Shown in pieces: positions 8,585 through 26,595 of a stretch of 64,000 nt of DNA. Position 1 is the stretch's first letter. Every line of letters starts with the position of its first letter. Below the pieces are notes generated by a model. The model did not search any database and was not told the origin of the DNA. It worked only from the letters and a program-made list of their open reading frames with translations. Made by a program: the position numbers and the translations under genes. Origin of the DNA: an uncultured Oscillospiraceae bacterium (lineage in GTDB: Bacteria; Bacillota; Clostridia; Oscillospirales; Oscillospiraceae); contig CAJUAC010000005.1 in the NCBI GenBank assembly GCA_910583885.1, forward strand, positions 16,508 through 80,507, read 5' to 3'.

Positions 8585-8618
8585 GCATTATGGACTGTGA
8601 TATGGGGAGGGGTGCTCT

Positions 8619-9344: not shown

Positions 9345-9417
9345 CTTCTACTGCCTTAAAAAGTATTCAATATATGGTTTCTTGCAACTTTGCTATGAAG
9401 CAACGGTTAATAACCTG

Positions 9418-10750: not shown

Positions 10751-10779
10751 TTGCACTTCTTTCTCTTTTATGATATAGT
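10751..10779 (+). promoter_or_regulatory. Sigma-A-type promoter of the glycopolymer operon (about 310-nt leader)
   Basis: TTGCAC, a 17-nt spacer, then TGaTATAGT, located in an AT-rich gap. Confidence 0.45.
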
Positions 10780-11092
10780 TGTCCTCAACGTTAAAAATGC
10801 TCCATGCTGGAGCCCTTTATATGACGCTATTTATAGACAACTTTTATATTTTGATTATAAATTTGAAAGGGGTTGCATCATGCAGTACGACCTAACAGGT
10901 CCTGGATTCCGTTTAGCACAGGAAGGGATCAAACGCTGCTTGACGGCTTGCTGTGGTTTGAGCCACAACGATAAATCCTGGCCGCAATGCATTGGGGGGC
11001 TGGGGCGGCAACAAACAGCCTACGCCCAGGAGCAGATACGGGCCGGACCCACGGAGCTGCTGAAGATTGATCGGAAAGGGAGGTAATATACA

Positions 11093-12565
11093 TTGCGAAA
11101 AATTACCCGTGCAGCGCTCTCTGAGCGCATGGAACAGTATCATATATTCAACCGCGTGGCGGTACGTGCCCTTCTGGGTTATCTTGCCTTGGTTGTCCTG
11201 TTTTTCTTCCTGGCAGGGGAGCAGCTCCATTTCCGCAGATCCCGTGGGGAAATTGCTATGCCTGCGGCGGACAGCGGCACGGTAGAGATGGCCGCAGGGA
11301 ATGTTGTGGAGCAGCGCTTTACCACCGCAGTCCAGCGCATTGAGCAGGTTGACGTCCAATGGGGGACATACTACCGGCCAAATGCGGGGGCCATCCTGAT
11401 GGAGCTCTGGGACACGCGGGACAACACGCTCCTGCTGTTGGGCCGCTTTGACGCTGCGGCCATCACAGAGGGCGGCGTGACCTCCCTCACTGCATCCCAG
11501 CCGCTAGAGGGGCTTTACCGGATCCCGCTCCTGCTGCGGGTTTCCTCACCGGACTGCCAGCCAGGCAGCTCACCTTCCCCGCTGATGAGCGTACAGGAGG
11601 CCCTGCCAGACAGCAGCCTATATCTCAATGGCGCAGCGGCGGACGGTGTGCTCTGCTTCGCGGTGCATGGCACGGACTACATTTGGACAGGTCTGCATTA
11701 CTGGGAGTTTGCAGCGGTGGGGCTTCTGCTCCTGCTTGCAGCTCTGGCCGTGATATGGTACCGCGTCCGCCTGGGGAAGCGCAGCTATGTACTCAATGCG
11801 GTAGTTGCCACAGAGAAGTACAGTTTCCTGATCCGCCAGCTGGTAGCGCGGGATTTTAAGACCAAGTACAAGCGGTCGGTACTGGGTATCTTCTGGAGCT
11901 TCCTCAACCCGCTGCTGACAATGTGCGTCCAGTACTTTGTTTTTTCAACAATTTTTAAAAGCGATATCCCCCATTATGTGGCCTATCTGCTGGTAGGTAT
12001 TGTCGTCTTCAACTTCTTTTCTGAGGCCTGCGGCATGTCGCTGACTGCCATCGCCGGCAACGCCAGCCTCATCACCAAGGTATATGTGCCCAAGTACATC
12101 TACCCTCTGACACGGGTGATCTCCTCGGTGATAAACCTAGGGATTTCTTTGATCCCCCTCGTGCTGGTCTCTTTGGGGACGGGGGTGGCACTCCGGAAGT
12201 CCACTGTGCTGGCTGTATACTTTTTATCATGCACCATCATCTTCAGCCTGGGGCTTGGCCTGCTCCTGTCGGCAGCCATGGTGTTTTTCCGGGACACCCA
12301 GTTCCTATGGGGGGTGCTAAGCATGATTTGGATGTATGTGACCCCCATTTTCTACCCGGAGAGCATCCTGCCGGACAATTTTAAGATCATCTTATGGATC
12401 AATCCCCTCTATCATTTCCTGAAAAATACCCGCATCTGCATTTTAGATGGTATTTCCCCTGAGCCAACCGTGTACCTCCACTGTATGCTGCTGGCCCTGG
12501 GGGCGCTGGGGATTGGCTCATGGATATTCCGTAAAGTACAGGACCGTTTTATCCTGTACCTGTAA
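11093..12565 (+). CDS. ABC-2 (Wzm/TagG-type) polysaccharide export permease with a ~235-aa N-terminal TM/extracytoplasmic-domain/TM extension
   Basis: The C-terminal 255 aa (FLIRQLVARDFKTKYKRSVLGIFWSFLNPLL... plus 6 TM) is the classic ABC-2 core. The N-terminal part has two hydrophobic helices bracketing a ~170-aa soluble segment. GGGAGG RBS before a TTG start. Confidence 0.85.
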   Translation: MRKITRAALSERMEQYHIFNRVAVRALLGYLALVVLFFFLAGEQLHFRRSRGEIAMPAADSGTVEMAAGNVVEQRFTTAVQRIEQVDVQWGTYYRPNAGAILMELWDTRDNTLLLLGRFDAAAITEGGVTSLTASQPLEGLYRIPLLLRVSSPDCQPGSSPSPLMSVQEALPDSSLYLNGAAADGVLCFAVHGTDYIWTGLHYWEFAAVGLLLLLAALAVIWYRVRLGKRSYVLNAVVATEKYSFLIRQLVARDFKTKYKRSVLGIFWSFLNPLLTMCVQYFVFSTIFKSDIPHYVAYLLVGIVVFNFFSEACGMSLTAIAGNASLITKVYVPKYIYPLTRVISSVINLGISLIPLVLVSLGTGVALRKSTVLAVYFLSCTIIFSLGLGLLLSAAMVFFRDTQFLWGVLSMIWMYVTPIFYPESILPDNFKIILWINPLYHFLKNTRICILDGISPEPTVYLHCMLLALGALGIGSWIFRKVQDRFILYL

Positions 12566-12574
12566 GAGGGGCTT

Positions 12575-13300
12575 ATGAGCAGAACAGTTATTGAATTAAC
12601 CGATGTGACCATGCGGTTTCGGATGAACAGCGACAAGATCCTGTCCTTGAAGGAATTTGTAACCACCGCCCTGCGAGGGAAGCTGGATTACCAGGAATTT
12701 ACCGCCCTGGACCACGTCTCCCTCCAGGTAAAAAAAGGGGAGACCCTGGGGCTGATCGGCCGCAACGGTGCGGGAAAAAGCACGCTGCTGAAGGTGATCT
12801 CCGGCATCCTGAAGCCGACAGCGGGCAGCGTACAGTGCCAGGGAACCATTGCGCCCATGCTGGAACTGGGTTCCGGGTTTGATATGGATCTGACTGGGCG
12901 GGAGAACATTTTCCTCAATGGTGCGATCCTTGGCTACAGTGAGGCATTTTTGAACGCAAAGTACGACGAAATCGCAGCATTTTCTGAGCTGGGCAACTTC
13001 ATCGAAACCCCTATCCGCAACTACTCCTCCGGGATGCTGGCGCGGCTGGCCTTCTCGGTTACAACAGTAGTCCAGCCGGAGGTACTGATCGTCGACGAGA
13101 TCCTATCCGTAGGGGATGCGGCATTCCAGGAGAAGAGCAGGCGGCGGATGATGGAGCTGATGGGCGGTGGAACTACCGTGCTCTTTGTCTCCCACAGCCT
13201 GGAGCAGATCCGTGAGATGTGCAGCCGGGTAGCCTGGCTGGAACAGGGGCGGGTCAAGATGATAGGCGCGCCTGCTGCGGTTTGCAGCGCTTATGTATAG
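12575..13300 (+). CDS. Polysaccharide/teichoic-acid export ABC ATP-binding protein (Wzt/TagH-type, no C-terminal carbohydrate-binding domain)
   Basis: Walker A GRNGAGKST, signature YSSGMLARL, Walker B LIVDEILSVGD, 241 aa. Confidence 0.9.
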   Translation: MSRTVIELTDVTMRFRMNSDKILSLKEFVTTALRGKLDYQEFTALDHVSLQVKKGETLGLIGRNGAGKSTLLKVISGILKPTAGSVQCQGTIAPMLELGSGFDMDLTGRENIFLNGAILGYSEAFLNAKYDEIAAFSELGNFIETPIRNYSSGMLARLAFSVTTVVQPEVLIVDEILSVGDAAFQEKSRRRMMELMGGGTTVLFVSHSLEQIREMCSRVAWLEQGRVKMIGAPAAVCSAYV

Positions 13301-13319
13301 GAGAGGGGGCAGGCCATCG

Positions 13320-14561
13320 ATGGACCAACTAACTGAACATTTTTCCGGTCCGCTCCTCTTTTCGTATGTCTGGTGGGTTCTTCATCAGGCAGTCCACATG
13401 CGGATTGGCAGGCTGTACTTTTTAGCCAGGGACGGCTGCCTCCTGCGGGAAATGGCGGAGCAGTTCTGCCGGAGCTGCCGCCTGCCCATTGAATGCCGCT
13501 ACCTGTATTGCTCCCGTATGGCCCTGCGCACACCATGCTGCCACCTGATTGGGGACGAGGCGCATGACCTGCTGCTCCTGGGCGGGTATCGGGTTTCCCT
13601 GCGCAGCCTGTTGGACCGGGTGGGGCTGGAGGACAGCGAGCGTCAGGAGGTATATCGGGAATGCGGCCTAGTCAGCCGGGATAAGGATGTCTTGCTGCCG
13701 GAGAAGGAGCTTGCACTGGTCCGCAGGCTGCTCAGAGGCAGCGAAACCTACCGCCGGGCTGTGGGGCGCAGATCCCGGGAGGCCTATCCAGCCGCAATGG
13801 GGTATCTCCGGCAGGAGGGGCTGTTTGATGGGGCCACTGTGGCCATCGTTGACAGCGGATGGACAGGCTCCATGCAGCGCTCCCTGCGCCAGCTGCTGCA
13901 ATCCGGCGGATATGCCGGGAGGATCGTCGGGTTCTACTTCGGCATGTACGCCCCACCCAAAAGCCCGGAGGACGGCGCCTATTTCACCTGGTTCTTTTCT
14001 GGCAGGGACCACCTCCTGCGGAAAATCCCCTTTAACAACAACCTCTTTGAGTGCCTGCTGTCCGCCCCGCACGGAATGACGGCAGGCTATCGGGAAGAAC
14101 GCGGTACCTATGTGCCGGTGTGCCTGCCGTGTACGGAGGGCTACCGGCAAACGGTGCGCAGGCAGATGGCCCGTGTACTGCGGTATACACAGAGGCGGCT
14201 GGAGACCTTGGACTTTGGCCGCTTCCACGGAAAGGCCTTGTTGAAGGAGAGCGAAAAAATCGTTTCCCGCTATATGGCACATCCAACGCGGGAGGAGGCG
14301 GTTGCCTGGGGGGAGTATCTTTTTTGCGACGACGTGACAGATGGATATCTCCTGCCCCTGGCAGACGCGTCACAGACAGCCATGCTCAAGAATTATGCTA
14401 TCCTCCGGCGCATATGCCGCAAGCTGGCGGGCAGGCCTGCCCAGGCTGCCGCAGAGCTGTACTGGCCCGAGGGGGTGTCCGCCTTCCTGCCACCGGCAAG
14501 GCGGCTGTGGTACCGCTGGAATATCTATGTGTGGGAGCTCCTGCGCTATGTGCTGCATTGA
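13320..14561 (+). CDS. Unknown-function protein, paralogous to the central domain of the 1266-aa protein (called the X domain here)
   Basis: Shares YFLARDG and IVDSGWTGSMQRSL with YFMLRDG and IVDLGWKGSMLRGL of the gene at 16303. GGAGAGGGGG RBS. An alternative ATG at 13293 overlaps the tagH-like stop. Confidence 0.7.
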   Translation: MDQLTEHFSGPLLFSYVWWVLHQAVHMRIGRLYFLARDGCLLREMAEQFCRSCRLPIECRYLYCSRMALRTPCCHLIGDEAHDLLLLGGYRVSLRSLLDRVGLEDSERQEVYRECGLVSRDKDVLLPEKELALVRRLLRGSETYRRAVGRRSREAYPAAMGYLRQEGLFDGATVAIVDSGWTGSMQRSLRQLLQSGGYAGRIVGFYFGMYAPPKSPEDGAYFTWFFSGRDHLLRKIPFNNNLFECLLSAPHGMTAGYREERGTYVPVCLPCTEGYRQTVRRQMARVLRYTQRRLETLDFGRFHGKALLKESEKIVSRYMAHPTREEAVAWGEYLFCDDVTDGYLLPLADASQTAMLKNYAILRRICRKLAGRPAQAAAELYWPEGVSAFLPPARRLWYRWNIYVWELLRYVLH

Positions 14562-15366
14562 CAGTCCGCCCAAGATCTCAGTGGTTATGGGGGCGTACAA
14601 TATTGCCGGCCTGTCCATCTTCCCAGAGGCCATCCAGTCCATCCTGTCCCAATCGCTGGTGGAGCTGGAGCTCCTCATCTGCGACGACGGCTCCTCGGAC
14701 AGGACCTGGGACATCCTCACCCTGCTGGCCGGGCAGGACCGCAGGGTACGGCTCCTCCGCAGTGGGCGGAACCGGGGGCTGGCCGCCGCGCTCAACCGCT
14801 GTATTGCAGCCGCTGGAGGGCGGTATATCGCGCGGCAGGACGCGGATGACCTCTCGGACCGGTTCCGCCTGGAGAAACAGTGCCGTTTCCTGGACAGCCA
14901 CCCGGAGATCCAGTTTGTAGGCAGCGATACGGAGCTGTTCGACCGGGACGGCATCTGGCGGGTACGGCGCTTTCCGGCCTTTCCCCGCCCGGAGGACTTC
15001 CTGTTTACCATGCCCTTTGTCCATGGGGCCCTCATGTTCCGGAGGGAGGCGCTGCTGGATATGGGCGGCTACCGCGTGGCGCGGGAGACCCGCCGCACCG
15101 AGGACTATGATCTGCTCATGCGGCTATACGCAGGCGGTCTGCGGGGGGCGAACATCGGAGAGCCCCTGTACCGCTTCCAGGAGGGCAGGGATACCGAGCA
15201 GCGCCGGAAATACCGCTACCGCGTGGACGAGGCGGCCGTCCGCTGGAAGGGGTTTGCGGCGATGGGCCTCATGCCGCGGGGGATCCCCTATGCCCTCAAG
15301 CCGCTGGCAGTGGGGCTCCTGCCTGCGGGCATCCTGCGCAGGATGAAGAAACTGCGCCCATATTGA
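14548..15366 (+). CDS. Family-2 glycosyltransferase (GT-A)
   Basis: ISVVMGAYNIAG...ILSQSLVELELLICDDGSSD...ARQDADDLS (DxD) fits the typical GT2 N-terminal half. The start is uncertain (14527, 14548 or 14587). Confidence 0.85.
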   Translation: MCCIDSPPKISVVMGAYNIAGLSIFPEAIQSILSQSLVELELLICDDGSSDRTWDILTLLAGQDRRVRLLRSGRNRGLAAALNRCIAAAGGRYIARQDADDLSDRFRLEKQCRFLDSHPEIQFVGSDTELFDRDGIWRVRRFPAFPRPEDFLFTMPFVHGALMFRREALLDMGGYRVARETRRTEDYDLLMRLYAGGLRGANIGEPLYRFQEGRDTEQRRKYRYRVDEAAVRWKGFAAMGLMPRGIPYALKPLAVGLLPAGILRRMKKLRPY

Positions 15367-15424
15367 GGGCCTGCATCCATGTCAAGCCAACGCTGGATAC
15401 AGGCCCGGAAGGGAAGGGACCCAC

Positions 15425-16234
15425 ATGGAGATCAGACGGATCATCCGCAGGGCAGACAGGGCGCTCTGCATATGGCTGCTGGAACGGAGCTCCCTGCCGC
15501 AGAAGATCATGTACTACCAGAGGCGGTATGATGGGCAGATCCTGCAAAGCTTCCTGCTGCCGCCGGTGGCACGGGGACAGCAGGAGGGCTGTATACTGAT
15601 GGACTACGCCGGCCGCAGGGCGTACCGGCCTGCGGATGTGTACGGATTCCTGGAGGGTTTCGACACCGTGTCCTTTGACCTCTTTGATACGCTCCTGTTC
15701 CGGGATACGCCCTCGCCAGCGGATCTATTCGGGCTGGTGGGACGGGAGCTGGGCATCCCGGATTTCCAGCGCTCCCGCATTGCGGCGGAGCGGGCGGCCC
15801 GGCGGGCCAAGCGCCAAGCCGCCGGAACCAGTGAGGTGACGCTTACGGACATCTACTCCATGTTGCCTGGCGCAGGCCGCAGCCATATGGAGGAGGAGCT
15901 CCGCCAGGAGCAATGCCACTGCCGCATAGACACCGCCATGCGGCAGCTGGTGGAGGTGCTGTGCCGGCGAGGGAAGCAGGTCGTGATCATATCGGATATG
16001 TACCTCACCGCAGAACAGCTGGCGGCACTGCTCCAGTGCGCCGGGTACACCTTCCCGGGCCATCTGTACGTCTCCAGCCAGTACGGATGCAGCAAGGCCA
16101 GCGGCGGGCTCTTCCCTCTGGTCCTGCGGGAGTGCGGTGCGAAGCGGATGGCCCATATCGGGGACAACTTTGCCAGCGATATCCTCATGGCCCGCCAGGC
16201 GGGGGTTCCTGCCCTGCACTGTTTGCAGCCATAG
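15425..16234 (+). CDS. HAD-superfamily (subfamily IA-like) hydrolase, paralogous to the N-terminal domain of the 1266-aa protein
   Basis: Motif I FDLFDTLLFR, ISDMYL, and motif III HIGDNFASD. The longer start is favoured by the coding-like GC3 of 15425-15598; an alternative start is at 15599. Confidence 0.8.
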   Translation: MEIRRIIRRADRALCIWLLERSSLPQKIMYYQRRYDGQILQSFLLPPVARGQQEGCILMDYAGRRAYRPADVYGFLEGFDTVSFDLFDTLLFRDTPSPADLFGLVGRELGIPDFQRSRIAAERAARRAKRQAAGTSEVTLTDIYSMLPGAGRSHMEEELRQEQCHCRIDTAMRQLVEVLCRRGKQVVIISDMYLTAEQLAALLQCAGYTFPGHLYVSSQYGCSKASGGLFPLVLRECGAKRMAHIGDNFASDILMARQAGVPALHCLQP

Positions 16235-16302
16235 GGAGGACAGTCCCCCGGGAAATTGGAGCAGCTCAACATCATAAAAAGTTTTGCAAGGAGCGGGTAT
16301 AT

Positions 16303-19300
16303 ATGGATATCACAACAATACGGCAGCTTATCAGCCAATCCCAAGCAGTTTCTTTTGACCTGTTTGACACGCTGGTTGTGCGGCTCTTCCGGAAGCCAAC
16401 TGACCTGTTCGCGCATCTGGAGGAATCCACCCAGGCCACCGGCTTCCAGTCGGCCCGGATCGCCGCAGAGCAGGAGGCGCGCTCCCTGGCCGCCGGGTGC
16501 GGTGTACACGAGGTCACACTCGATGAGATCTACACCCAGCTGCACCCGTCCTATCAGCCGCTGCGGCAAAAGGAGCTGGCGCTGGAGCGGCTGATGTGCC
16601 AGGCAAATCCGGAGATGCAGGAGGTCTTCCGCTGTGCGCTGGAGAGCGGGAAGCCGGTCTTCATTGCCTCAGATATGTACCTCCCCAGGGAGGTAGTGAC
16701 GGCCATCCTGGAGGACGCTGGATACCAAGGCTATCAGAAGCTCCTGCTCTCATCGGAGACCCGCCGCCCCAAGGCGACAGGAGAGATGTATGAGGATTTG
16801 ATCGCTGTTTCCGGCCTGGAGGCTGGCCAGATCCTCCACATCGGGGACCACCCCTATACAGACGGCCAGGCCGCGCGGGAGAAGGGGCTGCAAACCTACA
16901 GCTATACGCCGCTGCGGCAGTCCGCCGGGAACAACCGGAACTCCGCCTATTTTGCTGTGCTGAACCGTTATGCGGAGCAGGAGCCCGCCGTCTCCATCCT
17001 GGAGGGGCTGGTGACAGCCTACGAGGCCAGCCAACCTGCCCACACCTACTGGGAGTCCTTTGGCTACAAGTACACCGGCATCCTCGCCTATGGGTATATG
17101 AAGTGGCTCAAGGAGCGGCTGGATCACCTGGGGATCACCAGGGTTTACTTCATGCTGCGGGACGGCTTTGTGCTCAAGCGCGTATTTGACAGGCTCTTCC
17201 CGCAGTTTGAGACGTATGAAATCTACGGCTCCAGGAGGCTCTTCCTCTTCGCGGGGATGCGGTCCTACCGCGATATCCAGCTCCACATTACAGGTCTCCA
17301 CACAAAGGGGATCACCTATGCCCAGTTCTGGGACAGGCTCAGCTTAGAGGACGAGGCGTTCCATGCGCGCTACCTGGAGTCTTTCCCCATGCAGGCGCAG
17401 CGGATTTCCAGCGAGGGGCAGCTGCGGGAGCTGGACGCCTTTATGGAGGCCCATGAGGCGGATCTGCTGGCGGCAGGCCGGGAGGAGCGGGCTGCCCTGG
17501 CGGCGTACTTCCAGCAGATCGACCTGCTGGAGGGCCCGGCTGCCATTGTTGATTTAGGCTGGAAGGGATCTATGCTGCGGGGGCTGGAGAACGTATGCCA
17601 TCTCTTGGGCCGCTCCGCAGAGCTCACGGGCTTTTTCCTGGGCACACACACCTGCAATACCCCCGGCCTGCGGGTGGAGTCCTACCTGCTGGACCACGGG
17701 CACGCAACCGGCGCGAGGAATGCGGAGGTGCTGCTGGACTACGGGTACATTGTCCCGATTTTGGAGTCCGCCTTTTCCGCCCCCCACCAGAGCATCCTCA
17801 AGCTGAAGCAGCAGGACGGGGAAATGATCCCCATTTATCAGGACAGCAGCGCCCACGAGGAGGCGCGCAGCGGGATGTGCCGCCAGGTCCTTGACGGCAT
17901 ACTGGCGTTTGCTGCGGACATGGGCCGCATTGAGACGGTGTTCCCGCTCCCCATTTCCCGCGAGGCTGCCCTTGCCCCGATGGAGTACCTCTCCCGGTCC
18001 GCCAGCAAACCGGATCAGGTGCAGATACAGATGCAGAGCGTCTGCCCTGGCCTCGGGAATGACAGCAGCAACAGCCCCATTCTGCGGCAGGGCCGGCCTG
18101 TGATCGGTGTTGTCAACCCCTGGCCGGGGGATATGAGCGCGGAGTCCGAGGTGCTGGCGCGGCTGAAGCGGGCGGCAGAGGAAAATGGCATCGGCTATGT
18201 GATGCTGGACAATTTCGGCCATCTATTGGATGAACACCAGCGCGCGACCAGCACCTTTGTGGATGCGGATGATGTCAGCTTTATTCTCACGACCCATTAC
18301 GAGACGGCCAAGGTGCTGGACGCCTTCCACTACCACACCCTCTGGAACCCGCCGGAAATCCCGCTCAACCTGGACTACTATACCCAGCGCGTCACCAACC
18401 AATATCTGATGAACGAGGATTTCCTGATCTATGACGCCGGTGGCATGTCCAACCACCTGAAAGGGATGCTGCTCAACTGCCCCCGGACGCTGGAGGGTGC
18501 GTCCTCCCTGACAGCGTCCTTCCCCCTCAGCGCCATGCTGGCACCCCGGCTGGAGTCGCCCACCATGTTTTACTGCGGCATGAACTGGGAGAAAACGATC
18601 CATGGCAGCAACCGGCACGAGGGCCTGTTCAAGCTCCTGGACCGGACCGGGAAGGTAAAATTCTTCGGCCCGGAGGTTGTGGAGGCCTGGGGCGGCCTCC
18701 GGCCCTGGGAGGGGTACCAGTGCTATCAGTATTCCATCCCCTTTGACGGGTTCTCGATCCTGGAGGAGATCAACCAGTGCGGGATCTGCCTGGTACTCTC
18801 CTCCGACATACACCGGCGGGCAGGCAGCGCCACAAACCGCACCTATGAGGCCTGTGCCGCCGGGGCCGTCATCATCTCGGACGACAACGCCTTCATGCTG
18901 AAGTATTTTTCGGATGCTGCGCTGTTTATTACCTACAACAGGAACAACCCCCAGGACACTTTCCGCCAGATCATGGAGAAGTACAGCTGGATTATCTCCC
19001 ACAGGGAGGAGGCCCTTGCCCTGGCCAGGCGGGCGCAGCAGATTTTCGCAGAAACATTCGCCCTGGACATCCAGCTGAAACAGATTGTCGCAGCCCACCC
19101 TGCCCGCTTTGCCCAGGTCGCAGGGGACCTGTATGCAAAGGACGACGGGCAGACCGTTCTGGTGACTTATGTGCTCAATACCCAGGAGATGGGTACAGCA
19201 AAGGCACAGCTGGACAGCGTATTCCGGAATATCCACCGCCAGCTCTACCGCACCATCCAGCTTGCCATTGCGGCGGACCTGTCGATCTGCCAGGAGGTGC

Positions 19301-20103: not shown

Positions 20104-20105
20104 CC

Positions 20106-21005: not shown

Positions 21006-22003
21006 TTATGACAAAAGCGCCCTTCCGGATGTCCTTTTTCGGAGGAGGGACCGACTACCCGCCATTTTTTATGGAGCACGGGGGAAGCGTCCTCTCCACG
21101 ACATTTGACAAATATGTCTATGTCTCCGTGCGCCACCTCCCCCGTTTTTTTGCGTACCGCACGCAGGTCATCTACTCCAAAATTGAGCGGGTGGTATCCG
21201 AGGAGGAGCTGGAGCACCCCTTGGTCCGTGAGGCGATGCGGTATCTGGATATGCACAACCTGCATATCACCTATGACGCAGATCTGCCCGCCCGCTCTGG
21301 CCTGGGGTCCAGCAGCGCCTTTGCGGCGGCGCTGATCGGTGCGTTCCACGCCCTGAAGGGGCAGTATGTCCCACCGGGGCAGCTGGCGGAGGAGTGCATC
21401 TACGTGGAGCGCACACTCTGCGGGGAGGACGGCGGGTGGCAGGATCAGATTGCGGCCTGCTATGGGGGCTTTAACCGCATTGATTTCAAGGGGAGCCAGT
21501 TTGAAGTCCACCCGCTGATTATCCCCAAGGAGAGGAAGCAGGCCCTCAACCGGAACTTGATGCTGTTTTTCACCGGCTTCACCCGCTTTTCCTCGGATAT
21601 TGCCAAGGAGCAGACGAAGGCGGCCTCCGAAAAGGAGCGGGAGCTGGAGGAGATGCTTGCCCTGGTGGATGAGGCGGAAAATGTACTGGTGAACCGGCAC
21701 GGGGATCTGGATGCCTTCGGCCATCTGCTCCACCACACATGGGTCCTCAAGCAGCGCATGTCGAAGAGGATATCAACGTCCCAGCTGGATGAAATCTATG
21801 AGGCTGCCCGGCGTGCCGGTGCGCTGGGGGGCAAGCTGCTGGGGGCAGGCGGCGGGGGGTTCTTTGTGTTTTATGTGCCTGCCCAGTACCAGGAAGGCGT
21901 AAAAAATGCCCTATCCGGGCTGCTGCATGTCCCATTTTCCTTTGAAGAGGATGGGACAAAGGTGCTGTACTATGTACCGGAGGACTACGAAAAGGAGAAT
22001 TAG
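21002..22003 (+). CDS. hddA: GHMP kinase, D-glycero-alpha-D-manno-heptose-7-phosphate kinase (HddA-like)
   Basis: APFRMSFFGGGTDYPPF, LPARSGLGSSSAF and GGWQDQ are the HddA/fucokinase-type GHMP pattern. The gene sits in a heptose context. Confidence 0.75.
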   Translation: MIMTKAPFRMSFFGGGTDYPPFFMEHGGSVLSTTFDKYVYVSVRHLPRFFAYRTQVIYSKIERVVSEEELEHPLVREAMRYLDMHNLHITYDADLPARSGLGSSSAFAAALIGAFHALKGQYVPPGQLAEECIYVERTLCGEDGGWQDQIAACYGGFNRIDFKGSQFEVHPLIIPKERKQALNRNLMLFFTGFTRFSSDIAKEQTKAASEKERELEEMLALVDEAENVLVNRHGDLDAFGHLLHHTWVLKQRMSKRISTSQLDEIYEAARRAGALGGKLLGAGGGGFFVFYVPAQYQEGVKNALSGLLHVPFSFEEDGTKVLYYVPEDYEKEN

Positions 22004-22004
22004 T

Positions 22005-23018
22005 ATGAGAAAACGGGCTTTGATTACAGGAATGACAGGGATGGTCGGATCCCATATGGCAGACTACCTGCTGGAGAACACTGACTGGGACATCTTCGGG
22101 ATGCAGCGCTGGCGCAGCCCGCTGGATAACATCATGCACTTGATGCCCAGGATCAATGGGAAGGACCGGGTTTTTGTGGTATACGGCGATTTAAATGACA
22201 TGGCGAGCCTGGCTAATGTCCTCAACGAGGTCCAGCCGGACTACATCTACCATCTGGCCGCGCAGAGCTATCCGCTGACAAGCTTTACCGCACCGGCCGA
22301 TACGCTCAACACGAACATCCTGGGGACCTGCCGCCTGCTGGAGTCTGTGCGCCAGCTGAAGCTGGATCCAGTGATCCACGTGTGCGCCTCCAGTGAGGTG
22401 TTTGGGCGCGTCACGGCGGACAAGCTCCCCATCGATGAGTCGTGCTGTTTCCAGCCGGCGTCGCCCTACGCCATTTCCAAGGTGGGCACGGATCTGATCG
22501 GCCGCTTTTACGCAGAGGCCTACGGCATGACCGTGATGACAACCCGCATGTTCACACACACCGGCCCCCGCCGCGGCGACGTGTTCCATGAATCTACATT
22601 TGCCAAGCAGGTGGCAATGATTGAGGCGGGGCGGCAGCCGCCGGTCATCAAGGTGGGCAACCTGGATTCGCTCAGGACCTACGCAGATGTCCGCGACGCG
22701 GTGCGGGCCTACTATCTGCTGACAACGGTAAACCCGATACCGGGGGAGTATTACAATATCGGCGGCACCTACACCTGTACGGTAGGGGATACCCTCCAGT
22801 ATTTCATTGACCACTCCACGATGAAAGAGGCCATCCGCGTTGAGGTGGATCCGGCGCGCTTACGGCCGATCGACGCGGATTTGCAGGTTCCAAACTGTGA
22901 GAAGTTTACAAAGCACACCGGCTGGACGCCAGTATATCCCTATCAGCAGACAATGGACGACCTGCTGTCCTACTGGCGGGAGAAGCTTCAGCACACTGGG
23001 ACATACATTGACAGGTGA
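22005..23018 (+). CDS. Extended SDR, GDP-sugar 4,6-dehydratase/Rmd-like
   Basis: ALITGMTGMVGSHM, SSEVFG and YAISK (S/Y/K triad). 337 aa. The assignment of dehydratase versus reductase between this gene and the one at 20106 is uncertain. Confidence 0.75.
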   Translation: MRKRALITGMTGMVGSHMADYLLENTDWDIFGMQRWRSPLDNIMHLMPRINGKDRVFVVYGDLNDMASLANVLNEVQPDYIYHLAAQSYPLTSFTAPADTLNTNILGTCRLLESVRQLKLDPVIHVCASSEVFGRVTADKLPIDESCCFQPASPYAISKVGTDLIGRFYAEAYGMTVMTTRMFTHTGPRRGDVFHESTFAKQVAMIEAGRQPPVIKVGNLDSLRTYADVRDAVRAYYLLTTVNPIPGEYYNIGGTYTCTVGDTLQYFIDHSTMKEAIRVEVDPARLRPIDADLQVPNCEKFTKHTGWTPVYPYQQTMDDLLSYWREKLQHTGTYIDR

Positions 23019-23023
23019 CGGCC

Positions 23024-23404
23024 ATGTTGAAACGATTAAAGCCGGATTTTACCCATCGGGACGGGCGCGGATCCCTTGTCCAACTGGTCAGGGCGGGCTA
23101 TACGCAGTTCAATGTTATTACCAGCAGGGCGGGGGCGGAGCGGGGACGCCACTTCCACAAGCGTAATGGCGAAGCCTTTTACATCATCAGCGGGAAGGTG
23201 CGCGTTGATGTCAGCAGCCACGGGCAACGGGAGAGCTACCAGTTTGGAGACGGGGACTTCTTTTCCATTGAACCGCTGGATTTGCACAGCTTTTCCTTTA
23301 TTGAGGACACTGTCCTGGCGAGTATGTACGACCTTGGCGTGGAGCTGGAGGACGGGAAGAAGGATATTTATGATGAAGCAGAGTACAAAGCATATACTAA
23401 ATGA
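23024..23404 (+). CDS. Small cupin-fold sugar-nucleotide epimerase/ketoisomerase-like protein
   Basis: About 126 aa. DGRGSLVQL...ERGRHFHKRNGEAFYIISGKV is the cupin motif as in WxcM/FdtA/RmlC-type enzymes. An alternative GTG start is at 23015. Confidence 0.65.
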   Translation: MLKRLKPDFTHRDGRGSLVQLVRAGYTQFNVITSRAGAERGRHFHKRNGEAFYIISGKVRVDVSSHGQRESYQFGDGDFFSIEPLDLHSFSFIEDTVLASMYDLGVELEDGKKDIYDEAEYKAYTK

Positions 23405-24020
23405 TCTGATTGTGCGCTATCCGGCGCTGGATTGCTGTAAGGAGGGGATTTTCTCCGCTGTCGCAGTCAGCGCCCGCGCCTATGCGGAGGGCGGCAAGGT
23501 GCTGGCCTGCGGCAATGGCGGGAGCGCTGCTGACAGTATGCACATTGTGGGGGAATTGATGAAGGGGTTTACCCTGCCACGGAAGCTGCCGGAGGCGCTC
23601 TGCCAGCAGATCGCCCAGACGTCCCCGGAGACGGCGGCTTACCTGACAGAAAATTTACAGCAGGCCCTGCCCGCGATCTCCCTGGTGGGGGAAACCGCGC
23701 TCTCCACAGCCTACAGCAACGACATTTCGCCCGTCCTATGCTTTGCACAGCAGGTCCTAGCCCATGGGAAGGCGGGGGATATTTTGCTGGGGATATCCAC
23801 CTCGGGCAATTCAGCAAATGTCATTTACGCGGCCCAGATGGCACGTGTGAAGGGGATGCAGGTCATCGCTCTGACAGGGGGAACAGGGGGCGGACTGGTG
23901 GATTGGGCGGATGTACCCATCATTGTACCGGCCTCAGTAACCTATCACATCCAGGAGCTGCATCTGCCGGTCTATCACGCCTACTGCCTGGCACTGGAAA
24001 ATGAATTTTTCGGAGGATAA
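23370..24020 (+). CDS. gmhA: SIS-domain phosphoheptose isomerase
   Basis: KVLACGNGGSAADSMHIVGEL, ISTSGNSANV and the 216-aa length. Overlaps the cupin gene by 35 nt. Confidence 0.85.
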   Translation: MMKQSTKHILNDLIVRYPALDCCKEGIFSAVAVSARAYAEGGKVLACGNGGSAADSMHIVGELMKGFTLPRKLPEALCQQIAQTSPETAAYLTENLQQALPAISLVGETALSTAYSNDISPVLCFAQQVLAHGKAGDILLGISTSGNSANVIYAAQMARVKGMQVIALTGGTGGGLVDWADVPIIVPASVTYHIQELHLPVYHAYCLALENEFFGG

Positions 24021-24024
24021 GCGG

Positions 24025-24717
24025 ATGGAAGCAATTGTGTTGGCAGGTGGGTTGGGGACGCGGCTTGCCCACGTTGTAGCTGATGTCCCCAAGCCGATGG
24101 CACCGGTGTCAGGTACGCCGTTTTTACAACATATATTGGATCACCTCGTTCAGCAGGGGGTGTCGCATATCGTGCTGGCTGTGGGCTACAAAAAAGAGGC
24201 CATCACCAGCTATTTCCAAAACAGCTACCGGGGTGTACCAATCAGCTATTCGGTTGAAGAGTCCCCGCTGCTGACCGGGGGCGCGATCAAACAGGCGCTG
24301 GCATATTGTAGGGAAGATCCCGTGTTTATCAGCAACGGGGATACCTTGTTTGATGTGGACTATGCGCAGATGATGGCCGCCCACCAAGCGGCACATGCAG
24401 ACATCAGCATTGCGGTGAAGCCTATGGAACAGGTTGGGCGGTATGGCAGGGTGGCGTTCGATCAGGACATGCGGGTCCAATCATTCCACGAGAAGGGCTT
24501 CTGTGAAAAGGGTGCCATCAATGGTGGGGTGTACCTTCTGCAAAGAGGGGTGGTTGATACCATTACCGCAAATAAATTCAGCTTTGAAAAGGATGTCATG
24601 GAGGATCATCCCGCAGGCAAACGGATATTTGCCTGCCCATCTGCGGGCTATTTTATTGATATCGGCGTCCCGGAGGACTACGAAAAGGCGCAGAAGGATT
24701 TCCAGGAGAGGCGATGA
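24025..24717 (+). CDS. hddC: D-glycero-alpha-D-manno-heptose-1-phosphate guanylyltransferase-like nucleotidyltransferase
   Basis: MEAIVLAGGLGTRL....PKPMAPV is the NTP-transferase signature. 230 aa, in a heptose context. Confidence 0.75.
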   Translation: MEAIVLAGGLGTRLAHVVADVPKPMAPVSGTPFLQHILDHLVQQGVSHIVLAVGYKKEAITSYFQNSYRGVPISYSVEESPLLTGGAIKQALAYCREDPVFISNGDTLFDVDYAQMMAAHQAAHADISIAVKPMEQVGRYGRVAFDQDMRVQSFHEKGFCEKGAINGGVYLLQRGVVDTITANKFSFEKDVMEDHPAGKRIFACPSAGYFIDIGVPEDYEKAQKDFQERR

Positions 24718-25202
24718 GACGGGCAGCATTTTTTGACCGTGATGGGACAATCAACGTAAATTTCGGCCATGTGTATCAGAGGGAACGCCTTGTATTTGTT
24801 GCGGGAATTCCAGAGCTGATCGCCGGATATAACCGGAGCGGCATCCCGGTGATTGTAATCACCAATCAGGCTGGGATAGCCAAGGGGATGTACACGGAGG
24901 CCGACATGCACCAGTTCCATATATATATGAATGGACGCCTGGAGGAACTGTATGGGGCGCATATCGATGCGTTCTATTTCTGTCCGCACCATCCCGATTT
25001 TACTGGGCCATGTACTTGCCGCAAACCAGCCCCAGGGATGTTTTTTGCAGCTGCCAGGGACTGGCAGATCTCCTTGCAGGGGTCCACCATGTATGGGGAC
25101 AAGGAAACGGACCGATTGGCTGCCCAGCGGGCGGGGATTATGGATTTCCGTCCCGTTTCCTGCCGGGAAAATATCAGTGAAACTGGAGAGAAGTTGTCAT
25201 GA
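24714..25202 (+). CDS. gmhB: D,D-heptose 1,7-bisphosphate phosphatase (HAD-IIIA)
   Basis: AAFFDRDGTINV, VITNQAGIAKG and CPHHP....C.CRKP (Zn-binding loop). 162 aa. Confidence 0.85.
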   Translation: MRRAAFFDRDGTINVNFGHVYQRERLVFVAGIPELIAGYNRSGIPVIVITNQAGIAKGMYTEADMHQFHIYMNGRLEELYGAHIDAFYFCPHHPDFTGPCTCRKPAPGMFFAAARDWQISLQGSTMYGDKETDRLAAQRAGIMDFRPVSCRENISETGEKLS

Positions 25203-25226
25203 ATAGGACAGCTGGAATTCCATAGT

Positions 25227-26363
25227 TTGGAGGGGAAAGATTTGACACAGCAGCGGGTAAGATTTTTGGACATCTATAGATTCCTGGCAATGATTTTTGT
25301 GATGTGGGGACATCTTGTCGGAACAGGGATGTACGCAACAGAAATACCTGGCATAATAGCAGGTGCAATGCCAACCCCAATCATCGACGCGGCCGGGAAT
25401 CAGCTGGGTATATTAGAAAATTTCTTATATTACAGGTTACATACGCAGACCGCTGTTATGGGCGTTATTATGTTTTTCATGTGTACAGGATATTTTGTTC
25501 CCGCCATGTTGGAACGTTACCGGCGGAGTGAATTTATTGTAAACCGGCTATGCCGGATATTCCCTACGCTGTTTGTTTCCGTTGGCTTATGGGGCGTGGC
25601 TGTCTTTCTTTCACAAAAAATTACTTTTCGGCCGTCACAATATCTCACGAGCATTACCCTGACCTATCAGGTTTTTGGTATTGCCCCATTTATGGGGATA
25701 CTGTGGACCTTAGTAATTGAAGTCCTGTTTTACCTGGTTGCGGCGGCAGCGGGCCAGGTCAACAAAAACACAATTGTTTCTATCTATATTCTTATTGCTA
25801 TCACGGGCCTTATTTATCGTGAATTCCCCAATAGCCACACCTACAATTTGTTTTATAACCTGGAATATGTTTCATTTATACTGCTTGGCGCGACGCTGCA
25901 CTGTGCATTTCATGATAGGAAGTCCACTATAGTCGGGCAGTTTGCGCCAGTAGGGTCAGCACTATTCGCAAATCTAGTACTTTTTCAAATGAACCGCGAT
26001 ATATTACAGGACAGTACAACATACCCAAACCTTTTCAGCCATCTGATCCCTCTGTTTCTCTTCCTTATCCTCGCTTTTTTAGAGAAATCCGCTCCCAATT
26101 TTTACGAAAAAATCCCTGCCGCAGTATATCAGCTGTCCCATCTTGTGTTTCCAGTCTACACAACGCATGTATGTGTTGGCTTGACGAGTATGTATTGGGC
26201 TTCTACATGGGGGTTCAATCGATATATCACCGTTCTGATTGGATTCCTGCTGTCATTCTTAGTTGGAAAAGCAATTGCAGCAGCAATCGAAGTGCCGTCA
26301 ATTGTTTGGAGTAAAAAGGCAATTTCTGCAATGCGGGATAAGCCGCGTCCAGCATCCGAATGA
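25227..26363 (+). CDS. Acyltransferase-3 family membrane O-acyltransferase
   Basis: FLDIYRFLAMIFVMWGHL and about 10 TM segments. The gene is visibly AT-richer than the neighbouring genes. An alternative TTG start is at 25242. Confidence 0.8.
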   Translation: MEGKDLTQQRVRFLDIYRFLAMIFVMWGHLVGTGMYATEIPGIIAGAMPTPIIDAAGNQLGILENFLYYRLHTQTAVMGVIMFFMCTGYFVPAMLERYRRSEFIVNRLCRIFPTLFVSVGLWGVAVFLSQKITFRPSQYLTSITLTYQVFGIAPFMGILWTLVIEVLFYLVAAAAGQVNKNTIVSIYILIAITGLIYREFPNSHTYNLFYNLEYVSFILLGATLHCAFHDRKSTIVGQFAPVGSALFANLVLFQMNRDILQDSTTYPNLFSHLIPLFLFLILAFLEKSAPNFYEKIPAAVYQLSHLVFPVYTTHVCVGLTSMYWASTWGFNRYITVLIGFLLSFLVGKAIAAAIEVPSIVWSKKAISAMRDKPRPASE

Positions 26364-26523
26364 GTATTGACATCTCTTCTCCCGTTGGTTTGCTTCCACG
26401 CTTGCACCAGTGGCCCGCCACAATCTCACAGCCACCTGTGCGGAGATATTTCCTGTTTTGATGCAAGAGGCTATCTTCCCACTCAGATCTAACCGCTTCC
26501 CACCACAGGGCAGGCTGCTATAT

Positions 26524-26569
26524 TGTATAAGGGCGCACATTCCTTTGCGGGAATATGCGCCCTTATACA
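26524..26569. terminator. Long hairpin between the convergent acyltransferase and M42 peptidase genes
   Basis: tgtataagggcgcacattcc / ggaatatgcgcccttataca forms a 20-bp stem with one mismatch. Confidence 0.65.
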
Positions 26570-26595
26570 ATTATGTACGGATATGGCTGTTTTTA

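What the first reader, a model, noticed from the sequence alone, without database searches (positions are those of the whole stretch)
11093..26363. ABC-exporter-dependent glycopolymer locus built on a complete GDP-heptose / 6-deoxyheptose branch, with almost no conventional assembly enzymes
Seen in sequence: 15 co-directional genes are packed tightly or overlapping behind one promoter and a long leader.
- Export: a Wzm/TagG-like permease and a Wzt/TagH-like ATPase.
- Assembly candidates: an X-domain protein, a GT2, a HAD hydrolase and a 1266-aa HAD-X-GT protein.
- Sugar-nucleotide synthesis: SDR, hddA, SDR, cupin, gmhA, hddC, gmhB.
- Modification: an O-acyltransferase.

Established knowledge: GmhA-HddA-GmhB-HddC is the GDP-D-glycero-alpha-D-manno-heptose route characterised for the Aneurinibacillus thermoaerophilus S-layer glycan. 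A GMD-like 4,6-dehydratase plus a cupin epimerase plus a 4-reductase makes the GDP-6-deoxyheptoses of the Campylobacter jejuni capsule and the Yersinia pseudotuberculosis O-antigen.

Inference: this anaerobic Firmicute makes a (6-deoxy)heptose-containing wall or surface polymer that is finished in the cytoplasm and exported by the ABC-2 pump.

Unusual points: I see no polyprenyl-phosphate priming transferase (WecA/TagO or WbaP type), no Wzx/Wzy, no TagF-type polymerase, and only one small GT2. Polymerisation therefore has to rest on the uncharacterised HAD/X/GT modules. This is the strongest candidate for an undescribed system in the window.
Basis: partly seen in the sequence, partly recalled or inferred. 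Interest (0 to 1): 0.75.

Follow-up and report, generated by a model that had tools for sequence, protein, structure and literature searches.

The report
Ribofuranose and 6-deoxyheptose surface glycan locus
This gut Oscillospiraceae gene cluster most likely builds and exports a surface polysaccharide of ribofuranose and a 6-deoxyheptose; its "unknown" HAD/X modules are the PRPP-dependent ribofuranosyltransferase and phosphatase pair described in 2022-2023, so it is an uncharacterised example of a known kind of system, not a new one.

Summary
The observed genes are real. Fourteen co-directional genes (11093-26363) lie between housekeeping genes and end at a 22-bp hairpin.

The X domain is a CriT/gPRT-type PRPP-dependent ribofuranosyltransferase:
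- Its family profile hits Hib Bcs3 and the Thermobacillus composti ribofuranosyltransferase at E~1e-18.
- The AlphaFold model (pLDDT 92.5) matches only those two structures.
- The catalytic residues are conserved.

The HAD partners are CrpP/PRP-type phosphatases. The locus has two such pairs, one split and one fused.

The 1266-aa protein also carries a GT4-like GT-B domain and a GT-A-like domain. With the separate GT2 enzyme, the locus has five transferase modules, not "almost none".

The GDP-heptose and 6-deoxyheptose branch is supported by best hits. The epimerase, however, is a CapF-type cupin, not RmlC-like.

No priming transferase lies in the window. Related loci carry Bac_transf enzymes, so initiation is probably conventional and encoded elsewhere.

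Verdict: an ABC-transporter-dependent ribofuranose/6-deoxyheptose glycan locus. It is a new variant of a known kind and of moderate interest.

The parts
10470..11092 (+). AT-rich intergenic region with promoter-like hexamers (10821-10863) and a 5' leader of about 230-270 nt. The 68-aa ORF at 10880-11086 is probably not a gene.
   Evidence: The ORF is absent from public gene calls and conserved only in same-species contigs. No Rfam family matches.
11093..12565 (+). Wzm-type ABC-2 permease (490 aa). It has an N-terminal extension of about 235 aa: TM ~25-45, a hydrophilic domain of about 160 aa that is probably extracytoplasmic, and TM ~205-225.
   Evidence: Pfam ABC2_membrane covers aa 247-448. 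NCBIfam Wzm/KpsM are the best hits. The extension is conserved in related loci down to 29% identity.
12575..13300 (+). Wzt/TagH-type ABC ATPase (241 aa) with no C-terminal carbohydrate-binding domain.
   Evidence: NCBIfam galactan Wzt scores 209 bits and TagH 190 bits. The protein is only as long as the nucleotide-binding domain.
13320..14561 (+).
   Evidence: The family profile hits Bcs3 CriT (E 1.4e-18) and 7SHG (E 2.6e-18). The AF2 model has pLDDT 92.5. In Foldseek only 7SHG and 8A0C/8A0M match (E<=1e-10, TMq 0.56-0.71), and the next hit is at E 0.13. Motifs RDG (R37, D38), SRxxxR (S65, R66, R70) and DSGWxGS (D178-S184) are invariant.
14548..15366 (+). GT2 glycosyltransferase (272 aa) with a canonical DADD motif, EpsE-like. 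It is a candidate adaptor transferase or a partner of the ribofuranosyltransferase.
   Evidence: Pfam Glycos_transf_2 at E 3.5e-26. NCBIfam EpsE scores 236 bits, below its 450 cutoff. The start is taken from the public gene call.
15425..16234 (+). Stand-alone HAD phosphatase (269 aa), CrpP/PRP-like. It is the partner of the gPRT at 13320-14561.
   Evidence: Pfam Hydrolase. It is 37% identical to the N-terminal HAD of the large protein. Homologues of X and of this HAD are fused as X-HAD proteins of about 660 aa in many relatives.
16303..16917 (+). Large protein, domain 1 (aa 1-205): CrpP/PRP-like HAD phosphatase.
   Evidence: Profile A1 hits Bcs3 residues 385-834 (CrpP plus CriT) at E 1e-39. 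The invariant residues fit the four HAD motifs. As in CrpP, only the first Asp of motif I is conserved (D19). The others are S123, K157 and G181-D182...D187.
17050..18072 (+). Large protein, domain 2 (aa ~250-590): CriT/gPRT-like phosphoribosyltransferase.
   Evidence: Conserved motifs are R286-D287-G288, S310 and D417-L418-G419-W420.
18097..19134 (+). Large protein, domain 3 (aa ~599-944): GT-B glycosyltransferase, GT4-like (Pfam Glyco_trans_1_2). It is the candidate 6-deoxyheptosyltransferase.
   Evidence: Pfam PF13524. The AF2 model has pLDDT 90.5. Foldseek matches ManT 7QSG, PimA and sucrose-phosphate synthase. It co-occurs with the cupin and reductase genes in 22-23 of 28 related loci.
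19147..19869 (+). Large protein, domain 4 (aa ~949-1189): GT-A-like domain without a canonical DXD motif. Only E1051 and D1056-H1057 are invariant. It may be catalytic or accessory.
   Evidence: AF2 model. Foldseek matches SpsA 1QG8, RmlT, K4CP and WrtF.
19918..20094 (+). Large protein, C-terminal basic helices. These may mediate membrane or partner association (inferred).
   Evidence: The AF2 model shows helices at fragment residues 617-675 after a disordered linker. The analogy is to the Bcs3 C-terminal helical bundle.
20091..21005 (+). RmlD-like SDR, the candidate GDP-4-keto-6-deoxyheptose 4-reductase. The start may instead be the ATG at 20106.
   Evidence: Pfam RmlD_sub_bind at E 4e-29. 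There are only weak PDB relatives: MoeE5, MAT2B and RmlD. It is conserved next to the GT module in related loci.
21002..22003 (+). HddA/WcbL-like heptose-7-phosphate kinase (GHMP family).
   Evidence: HddA is the best NCBIfam hit at 130 bits, below its 600 cutoff. The best PDB hits are WcbL 4USK (E 1.6e-42) and other heptose kinases.
22005..23018 (+). GDP-D-glycero-D-manno-heptose 4,6-dehydratase.
   Evidence: 368 bits to 7US5, against 142 bits to GDP-mannose 4,6-dehydratase.
23015..23404 (+). Small cupin (129 aa) of the CapF/WbcJ C-terminal type. It is the candidate C3 (or C3/C5) epimerase of the 4-keto intermediate.
   Evidence: Pfam PF14667 and Cupin_2. NCBIfam WbcJ C-terminal region. Cap5F is a weak PDB hit and no RmlC-like hit is found.
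23370..24020 (+). GmhA sedoheptulose-7-phosphate isomerase.
   Evidence: The best NCBIfam hits are phosphoheptose isomerase and gmhA at E 1e-40 to 1e-43.
24001..24717 (+). HddC heptose-1-phosphate guanylyltransferase.
   Evidence: NCBIfam HddC scores 235 bits (cutoff 300) and is the best hit.
24714..25202 (+). GmhB heptose-1,7-bisphosphate 7-phosphatase (HAD-IIIA).
   Evidence: NCBIfam GmhB families at E 1e-36 to 1e-38.
25227..26363 (+). Membrane O-acyltransferase (Acyl_transf_3). It probably O-acetylates the glycan.
   Evidence: Pfam PF01757 at E 2.8e-20. Homologues occur in several related loci.
26522..26571 (.). A near-perfect hairpin with a stem of about 22 bp, between the convergent acyltransferase and M42 peptidase genes. 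It is a likely bidirectional terminator.
   Evidence: MFE -79 kcal/mol, z -4.5.

Best explanation
The locus encodes an ABC-transporter-dependent pathway for a cell-surface heteropolysaccharide whose locus-specific sugars are beta-D-ribofuranose and a 6-deoxyheptose.

Donors:
- PRPP comes from central metabolism.
- A GDP-6-deoxyheptose is made from sedoheptulose-7-phosphate. The steps are GmhA, HddA, GmhB and HddC, giving GDP-D-glycero-alpha-D-manno-heptose. These are followed by the heptose 4,6-dehydratase, a CapF-type cupin epimerase and an RmlD-like 4-reductase.

Assembly, on the cytoplasmic face of the membrane and on a lipid-linked primer made by a phosphoglycosyltransferase encoded elsewhere:
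- The GT2 enzyme and the stand-alone gPRT plus PRP pair add early or adaptor residues. The gPRT transfers ribofuranose-5-phosphate from PRPP and the HAD phosphatase then removes the 5-phosphate.
- The 1266-aa PRP-gPRT-GT-B-GT-A protein acts as the repeat-unit polymerase. It alternates ribofuranose addition with (6-deoxy)heptose addition.

After assembly:
- Wzm/Wzt export the finished chain. There is no recognition domain for a terminal cap.
- The Acyl_transf_3 protein O-acetylates the chain.
- The chain is then attached to peptidoglycan by LCP ligases or to a protein by an O-oligosaccharyltransferase.

Shown here: the fold, family and motif assignments of all modules, and their co-occurrence across genomes.

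Inferred: the donor and acceptor specificities, the order of action, the stereochemistry of the final heptose, and the final anchor.
For: gPRT assignment:
- Profile matches to Bcs3 CriT and to 7SHG.
- A high-confidence model whose only structural neighbours are those two enzymes.
- Conservation of the residues shown by mutagenesis or structure in Bcs3: D680 and E818 equivalents, S707/R708/R712, and loop 3.

PRP assignment:
- HAD motifs with only the first Asp of motif I conserved, as in CrpP.
- Fusion of X and HAD in relatives and in the large protein.

Other modules:
- GT-B and GT-A folds in the C-terminal half of the large protein.
- Heptose branch.
- ABC transporter.

Comparative genomics:
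- The GT-B/GT-A module sits with the cupin, the RmlD-like reductase and a 4,6-dehydratase in 22-23 of 28 loci from Firmicutes, Alphaproteobacteria, Spirochaetes and others.
- The same gene set occurs with Bac_transf priming enzymes, and in one case with a 790-aa Wzy_C protein, in related loci.
- The locus is identical in at least 8 metagenome samples.

Precedent: ribofuranosyltransferase modules work within ABC-transporter-dependent polymerases in Klebsiella O4/O7, Hib, C. jejuni HS:2 and the Salmonella T1 antigen.
Against: - No biochemical or compositional data exist for this organism, which is known only as a metagenome-assembled genome.
- The heptose enzymes score below the NCBIfam equivalog cutoffs: HddA 130 of 600, HddC 235 of 300, GmhB 130 of 178.
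- The cupin and the reductase have no characterised close relatives, so the product sugar is unknown.
- The GT-A-like domain lacks a DXD motif and may not be catalytic.
- No priming transferase or dedicated ligase lies in the locus or the window.
- Which GT module uses which donor was not tested.
Confidence: 0.7

Rival explanations
1. The biosynthetic machinery is the same, but the product is a protein-linked O-glycan (S-layer or another surface protein) rather than a peptidoglycan-anchored wall polysaccharide or capsule. This would follow the ABC-transporter-dependent S-layer glycosylation clusters of Geobacillus and Aneurinibacillus.
For: A close relative of the locus (L037, whose large protein is 58% identical) has a 790-aa Wzy_C-domain protein and a Bac_transf enzyme directly upstream of the same gene set. 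From my own knowledge, not tested here: this is the WsaP/WsaB arrangement, and heptose-containing S-layer glycans are known from Aneurinibacillus.
Against: No Wzy_C gene is in this window. Two LCP ligase genes lie 18 kb downstream, which fits wall attachment, but they may serve another polymer.
Confidence: 0.25
2. One reading: the HAD/X modules are a new, undescribed kind of polymerase, and the locus lacks conventional glycosyltransferases and lipid priming.
For: Pfam and NCBIfam give no family for the X protein. No primer gene is in the window.
Against: The X protein matches solved and biochemically characterised ribofuranosyltransferases in sequence, fold and catalytic residues. GT-B, GT-A-like and GT2 modules are present. 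Related loci carry Bac_transf enzymes.
Confidence: 0.04
3. The gPRT-like modules use a donor other than PRPP or add a residue other than ribofuranose, so the polymer contains no ribose.
For: Identity to characterised enzymes is low (17-19% in structural alignments). The second 5-phosphate-binding Arg is shifted in the fused copy.
Against: The acidic pair, the phosphate-binding Ser/Arg and loop 3 are conserved. The module is always paired with a CrpP-type phosphatase. That pairing makes sense only if a phosphorylated sugar is transferred.
Confidence: 0.06
4. The locus is a non-functional or incomplete remnant, since it has no primer and no ligase.
For: No priming transferase lies within about 20 kb upstream or 37 kb downstream. 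The neighbourhood holds ParA gene fragments and a low-GC patch.
Against: All 14 ORFs are intact and tightly coupled. The locus is conserved at 97-100% identity in at least 8 independent samples. From established knowledge: primers encoded away from the locus are normal, for example rgpG/tagO for streptococcal rhamnan and wecA for Klebsiella O antigens.
Confidence: 0.05

Closest known systems
Haemophilus influenzae type b capsule polymerase Bcs3 (CroT-CrpP-CriT-SH3b; PDB 8A0C; PMC10299916)
   Same: It has a HAD phosphatase followed by a PRPP-dependent ribofuranosyltransferase, fused to a further transferase in one polymerase. It works with an ABC transporter. The catalytic residues are conserved.
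   Different: The partner module in Bcs3 is a TagF-like ribitol-phosphate transferase. Here it is a GT4-like GT-B domain plus a GT-A-like domain. There is no SH3b domain. The organism here is Gram-positive-type and has a second, split gPRT/PRP pair.
Klebsiella pneumoniae O4/O7 ribofuranosyltransferases and the Thermobacillus composti homologue (PRP-gPRT; PDB 7SHG; PMC11231755)
   Same: It is a dual PRP plus gPRT enzyme acting inside an ABC-transporter-dependent O-antigen pathway, alongside separate GT polypeptides. It is the closest structural neighbour of the X protein.
   Different: Those enzymes are single PRP-gPRT polypeptides. Here one pair is split by a GT2 gene. In relatives the pair is fused in the opposite order (gPRT-PRP). 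The other pair is embedded in a four-module protein.
Salmonella T1 antigen STM0725 (GT-A) and STM0726 (PRP-gPRT) (PMC11294581)
   Same: A GT-A-fold protein is encoded beside, and complexes with, a ribofuranosyltransferase in an ABC-transporter-dependent system. That resembles the X-GT2-HAD trio here and the GT-A-like domain of the large protein.
   Different: T1 is a ribofuranan/galactofuranan and contains no heptose.
Campylobacter jejuni HS:2 Cj1432 and the C. jejuni GDP-heptose modifying enzymes (PMC12096443; PDB 7US5)
   Same: It has a GT-phosphatase-PRPP-transferase multidomain polymerase, and its capsule combines ribose and heptose. The 4,6-dehydratase is a close homologue (368 bits).
   Different: The domain order and GT types differ. 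From my own knowledge, the C. jejuni epimerases are RmlC-like cupins; no PDB protein annotated as such an epimerase matches the cupin here, whose only polysaccharide-enzyme match is Cap5F.
GDP-D-glycero-alpha-D-manno-heptose pathway of Aneurinibacillus thermoaerophilus, and the Burkholderia pseudomallei 6-deoxyheptan capsule (WcbL and others)
   Same: The GmhA/HddA/GmhB/HddC enzyme set is present. The kinase is closest to WcbL. The product is an exported, O-acetylated deoxyheptose-containing polymer (the precedent is from established knowledge).
   Different: The scores fall below the equivalog cutoffs. The polymerase modules are unrelated, and ribofuranose is an additional component.

Membership tests
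Glycan phosphoribosyltransferase (CriT / gPRT) | Sequence-profile similarity to characterised members | tested here: met
   Profile A2 against PDB gives Bcs3 at E 1.4e-18 and 7SHG at E 2.6e-18. Profile A1 gives Bcs3 385-834 at E 1e-39.
Glycan phosphoribosyltransferase (CriT / gPRT) | PRTase-like alpha/beta catalytic core with helical bundles | tested here: met
   The AF2 model has pLDDT 92.5. In Foldseek only 7SHG and 8A0C/8A0M match (E 3e-13 to 7e-11, TMq 0.56-0.71), and the next hit is at E 0.13.
Glycan phosphoribosyltransferase (CriT / gPRT) | Acidic pair that positions the ribose (Bcs3 D680 and E818), plus the 5-phosphate-binding Ser/Arg (S707, R708, R712) | tested here: met
   In the X protein, D38, D178, S65, R66 and R70 are invariant and align to these residues. 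In the fused copy, D287, D417 and S310 are conserved (invariant or in at least 90% of sequences), followed by R311 and R312 in the window sequence; the second Arg is shifted.
Glycan phosphoribosyltransferase (CriT / gPRT) | PRPP-dependent transfer of ribofuranose-5-phosphate to a glycan acceptor | not testable with these tools
   This needs an enzyme assay.
Phosphoribose phosphatase (CrpP / PRP, HAD superfamily) | HAD motifs I-IV with only the first Asp of motif I conserved, and physical or genetic pairing with a gPRT | tested here: met
   D19, S123, K157 and G181-D182/D187 are conserved. Fusion or adjacency is shown.
ABC-transporter-dependent glycan assembly (Wzm/Wzt type) | Adjacent ABC-2 permease and nucleotide-binding subunit within the glycan locus | tested here: met
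   The pair is conserved with the polymerase in related loci.
ABC-transporter-dependent glycan assembly (Wzm/Wzt type) | Polyprenyl-phosphate priming transferase | tested here: not met
   None is in the locus, the window, or the 10 kb upstream of the window. Bac_transf enzymes are present in related loci. The rest of the genome could not be searched.
ABC-transporter-dependent glycan assembly (Wzm/Wzt type) | Wzt C-terminal carbohydrate-binding domain (subtype with capped chains) | tested here: not met
   Wzt is 241 aa, the nucleotide-binding domain only. This points to the uncapped, TagGH/KpsMT-like subtype.
GDP-D-glycero-alpha-D-manno-heptose pathway (GmhA, HddA, GmhB, HddC) | All four enzymes present, each with a heptose enzyme as its best hit | tested here: met
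   NCBIfam best hits. The kinase's best PDB hits are WcbL and other heptose kinases.
GDP-D-glycero-alpha-D-manno-heptose pathway (GmhA, HddA, GmhB, HddC) | Scores above the NCBIfam equivalog cutoffs | tested here: not met
   HddA 130 of 600, HddC 235 of 300, GmhB 130 of 178, GmhA 146 of 276. These are divergent members, and their function is inferred from context.
GDP-heptose 4,6-dehydratase (DmhA / WcbK / C. jejuni type) | Closer to heptose dehydratases than to GDP-mannose dehydratases | tested here: met
   368 bits to 7US5, against 142 bits to the best GDP-mannose dehydratase.
RmlC-like GDP-heptose epimerases (DdahB / MlghB / Cj1430) | Detectable homology to RmlC-type cupin epimerases | tested here: not met
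   No PDB hit at E<=0.01 is annotated as an RmlC-type sugar epimerase (that such structures are in the PDB is from my own knowledge). Weak hits go to OxdC cupins and the Cap5F C-terminal domain, and Pfam gives PF14667.
TagF-type teichoic acid polymerase / classical WTA locus | CDP-glycerol or CDP-ribitol phosphotransferase domain, with TagO/TagA/TagB | tested here: not met
   There are no such Pfam or NCBIfam hits. The GT-B domain's structural neighbours are GT4 enzymes.

The most novel reading that the evidence does not exclude
The locus may define a distinct, widespread polymerase system. In it, a GT-B/GT-A tandem is dedicated to a previously undescribed GDP-6-deoxy sugar configuration made by a CapF-type cupin and an RmlD-like reductase, from either a heptose or a hexose. 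The DXD-less GT-A-like domain would act as a non-catalytic processivity or partner module for the ribofuranosyltransferase, as STM0725 does. The conserved extracytoplasmic domain on Wzm would couple export to downstream handling of the chain, such as attachment or length control.
Probability: 0.2. Interest if true: 0.6.

Novelty: new variant of a known kind. Interest (0 to 1): 0.4.

Why it matters
Surface glycans of gut Clostridia are largely uncharted, yet they shape recognition by phages, antibodies and the host.

This locus predicts a concrete and testable composition: ribofuranose plus an O-acetylated 6-deoxyheptose. It extends PRPP-dependent ribofuranosylation, so far shown biochemically only in Gram-negative pathogens, to abundant gut Firmicutes.

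It also flags three uncharacterised parts:
- a GT-B/GT-A tandem family of about 1000 sequence clusters;
- a cupin and reductase pair for GDP-6-deoxy sugars;
- a Wzm permease with an external domain.

It does not reveal a new mechanism of polymerisation.

Tried and rejected
- tmRNA or tRNA island attachment next to SmpB: ARAGORN and Rfam found none near the locus.
- The 68-aa leader ORF as a 15th gene: rejected. It is not called by the public gene caller, has no Pfam match, and is conserved only within the species.
- The N-terminal domain of Wzm: the homologue search returned only close, mostly fragmentary relatives and no annotated partner domains.
- A clean empty site in a relative: a related genome with a 90%-identical M42 peptidase has a different, rearranged neighbourhood, so no insertion junction could be defined.
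- Literature search for known ribose/6-deoxyheptose polymers in Gram-positives or Eubacterium saburreum: nothing usable in the held library.
- TagF-type or WTA interpretation: rejected for lack of any matching domain.
- RmlC-like assignment of the cupin: rejected.
- Comparison of the GT2 enzyme with Salmonella STM0725: not possible, because the sequence is not in the accessible collections.

Full report
**Observation**

The region 11093-26363 holds 14 intact genes, all on the + strand. They overlap or lie at most 68 nt apart.

- an ABC-2 permease and a Wzt/TagH-type ATPase;
- a protein with no family (X), a GT2, a HAD-IA hydrolase and a 1266-aa protein with HAD and Glyco_trans_1_2 matches;
- an RmlD-like SDR, a GHMP kinase, a GMD-like SDR and a cupin;
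- a SIS isomerase, an NTP-transferase, a HAD-IIIA phosphatase and an Acyl_transf_3 protein.

The X protein aligns to aa 257-511 of the large protein. The small HAD aligns to its N-terminus. The module is therefore duplicated.

The flanks are housekeeping genes. Upstream lie Opp, DUF386, PPIase and SmpB. Downstream lie an M42 peptidase, a creatininase and POR. The locus ends at a hairpin with a stem of about 22 bp at 26522-26571.

GC3 in the locus is 0.62-0.77, against 0.83-0.89 upstream. The 68-aa ORF in the leader is not a conserved gene. The window is positions 33455-97454 of contig CATLAI010000010.1 (assembly GCA_949878405.1). The same locus occurs in at least 8 independent samples.

**What the X and HAD modules are**

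A profile of the X family (45 sequences) matches two PDB entries. One is the CriT domain of the H. influenzae type b capsule polymerase Bcs3 (E 1.4e-18). The other is the Thermobacillus composti polysaccharide ribofuranosyltransferase 7SHG (E 2.6e-18).

A profile of the large protein matches Bcs3 residues 385-834, which are CrpP plus CriT, at E 1e-39.

The AlphaFold model of the X protein has pLDDT 92.5. Only those two enzymes are structural neighbours (E 3e-13 to 7e-11, TMq 0.56-0.71). The next hit is at E 0.13.

Residues that the Bcs3 paper identifies in the PRPP site align to invariant residues of the X family:
- S678-R679-D680 of Bcs3 correspond to A36-R37-D38 of X.
- S707/R708/R712 correspond to S65/R66/R70.
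- E818 and loop 3 correspond to D178-S179-G180-W181-x-G183-S184.

The HAD domains have motifs II-IV and, like CrpP, only the first Asp of motif I. Many X homologues are fused to the HAD as proteins of about 660 aa.

These modules are therefore the glycan phosphoribosyltransferase (gPRT/CriT) and the phosphoribose phosphatase (PRP/CrpP). The first adds ribofuranose-5-phosphate from PRPP and the second removes the 5-phosphate. The chemistry was demonstrated in Klebsiella O4/O7, Hib, C. jejuni Cj1432 and the Salmonella T1 antigen. The locus has two such pairs.

**The rest of the large protein**

The C-terminal 677 residues were modelled at pLDDT 90.5. They form three parts:
- a GT-B domain whose neighbours are GT4 enzymes such as the GDP-mannose-using ManT and PimA;
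- a GT-A-like domain whose neighbours are SpsA, RmlT, K4CP and WrtF;
- basic C-terminal helices.

The GT-A-like domain keeps the early Asp (D992). In place of DXD it has only an invariant Glu (E1051) followed by D1056-H1057. Its catalytic competence is uncertain.

The tandem family has about 1000 sequence clusters at 50% identity. Many members are stand-alone proteins of about 650 aa.

**The sugar-nucleotide branch**

- The dehydratase scores 368 bits to the C. jejuni GDP-D-glycero-D-manno-heptose 4,6-dehydratase and 142 bits to GDP-mannose dehydratase.
- The kinase is closest to B. pseudomallei WcbL and other heptose kinases.
- HddC, GmhA and GmhB are the best NCBIfam hits, although all are below the equivalog cutoffs.
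- The cupin is not RmlC-like. It belongs with the C-terminal domain of CapF/WbcJ.
- The reductase is only distantly RmlD-like.

A GDP-6-deoxyheptose is therefore likely, but its stereochemistry cannot be inferred.

**Comparative genomics**

I retrieved 28 loci that encode relatives of the large protein. They come from Oscillospiraceae, Lachnospiraceae, Megamonas, Treponema, Streptobacillus, Gluconacetobacter, Roseomonas and Azospirillum.

- In 22-23 of them the GT-B/GT-A module sits with the cupin, the RmlD-like reductase and a 4,6-dehydratase.
- About 14 loci have the heptose-type dehydratase plus heptose genes. About 8 have only a hexose-type GMD.
- At least one GT domain therefore seems tied to the configuration made by the cupin and reductase pair, not to the heptose tail (inference).
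- Related loci carry Bac_transf priming enzymes beside the same gene set. One of them also has a 790-aa Wzy_C protein. Another is flanked by integrases.

In this genome no priming transferase lies within the window or within 10 kb upstream of it. Two LCP ligase genes lie at 44709-48209.

**Mechanism proposed**

1. A primer is made on undecaprenyl phosphate by an enzyme encoded elsewhere.
2. The GT2 enzyme and the split gPRT/PRP pair carry out the early steps.
3. The four-module protein builds the repeat unit. It alternates PRPP-derived ribofuranose with (6-deoxy)heptose.
4. Wzm/Wzt export the chain. Wzt has no carbohydrate-binding domain, so no terminal cap is read.
5. The chain is O-acetylated and then attached to the wall or to a protein.

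The family and fold assignments and the co-occurrence are shown here. The specificities, the order of steps and the final anchor are inferred.

**Comparison and verdict**

The system works like the ABC-transporter-dependent O-antigen and capsule polymerases that contain ribofuranosyltransferase modules. It passes the sequence, fold and motif tests for gPRT and PRP membership. It differs in four ways:
- module composition (PRP-gPRT-GT-B-GT-A plus a split pair);
- the partner sugar and its cupin and reductase pathway;
- the extended Wzm permease;
- host lineage.

Its claim of an undescribed assembly system is not. I rate this a new variant of a known kind, with interest 0.4.

Noticed in passing
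window 44709-46331 and 46365-48209 (+): Two tandem LytR-CpsA-Psr (LCP) family genes lie about 18 kb downstream of the locus. They are candidate ligases for attaching a lipid-linked glycopolymer to peptidoglycan.
   Followed up: partly
window 11093-11800 (N-terminal ~235 aa of the permease): The Wzm permease carries a conserved extension: TM, a hydrophilic domain of about 160 aa, then TM. It has no Pfam match. Relatives keep it down to 29% identity. Its function is unknown.
   Followed up: partly
L001 and L002 (contigs CANQSU010000012.1 and CANQSU010000015.1, same rabbit-gut Oscillospiraceae MAG): One MAG carries two complete paralogous copies of the whole locus on different contigs. Each is about 61% identical to the window's large protein. 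One copy is flanked by two integrase genes (L040).
   Followed up: partly
window 46179-46271 (-): ARAGORN calls a 93-nt tRNA-Glu(CTC) inside the 3' end of an LCP coding sequence. Rfam finds no tRNA there, so it is probably a false positive.
   Followed up: partly
window ~8000-9400: A low-GC patch holds a 198-aa ORF with no family. The public gene calls place two tiny ORFs here; the 60-aa one has ParA/CbiA-type Pfam hits. This may be a remnant of a mobile element next to the locus.
   Followed up: no
window 4128-5708 and 5716-7197 (+): Two large ORFs (526 aa, and 493 aa or 483 aa in the public gene call) with high GC3 and no Pfam family lie between the Opp transporter genes and DUF386.
   Followed up: no
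L037 8772-9899, L040 8744-9940: Relatives of the locus carry a Methyltransf_21-type gene immediately upstream of the large polymerase gene. The window has none. It could be a chain-terminating or modifying methyltransferase.
   Followed up: no
one search hit list (P0046-P0103): The HAD-gPRT module is fused in other organisms to GT2, GT4, Capsule_synth (KpsC/S-type, PF05159), RgpF (PF05045) and a Polysacc_synt domain. This shows wide modular reuse.
   Followed up: no
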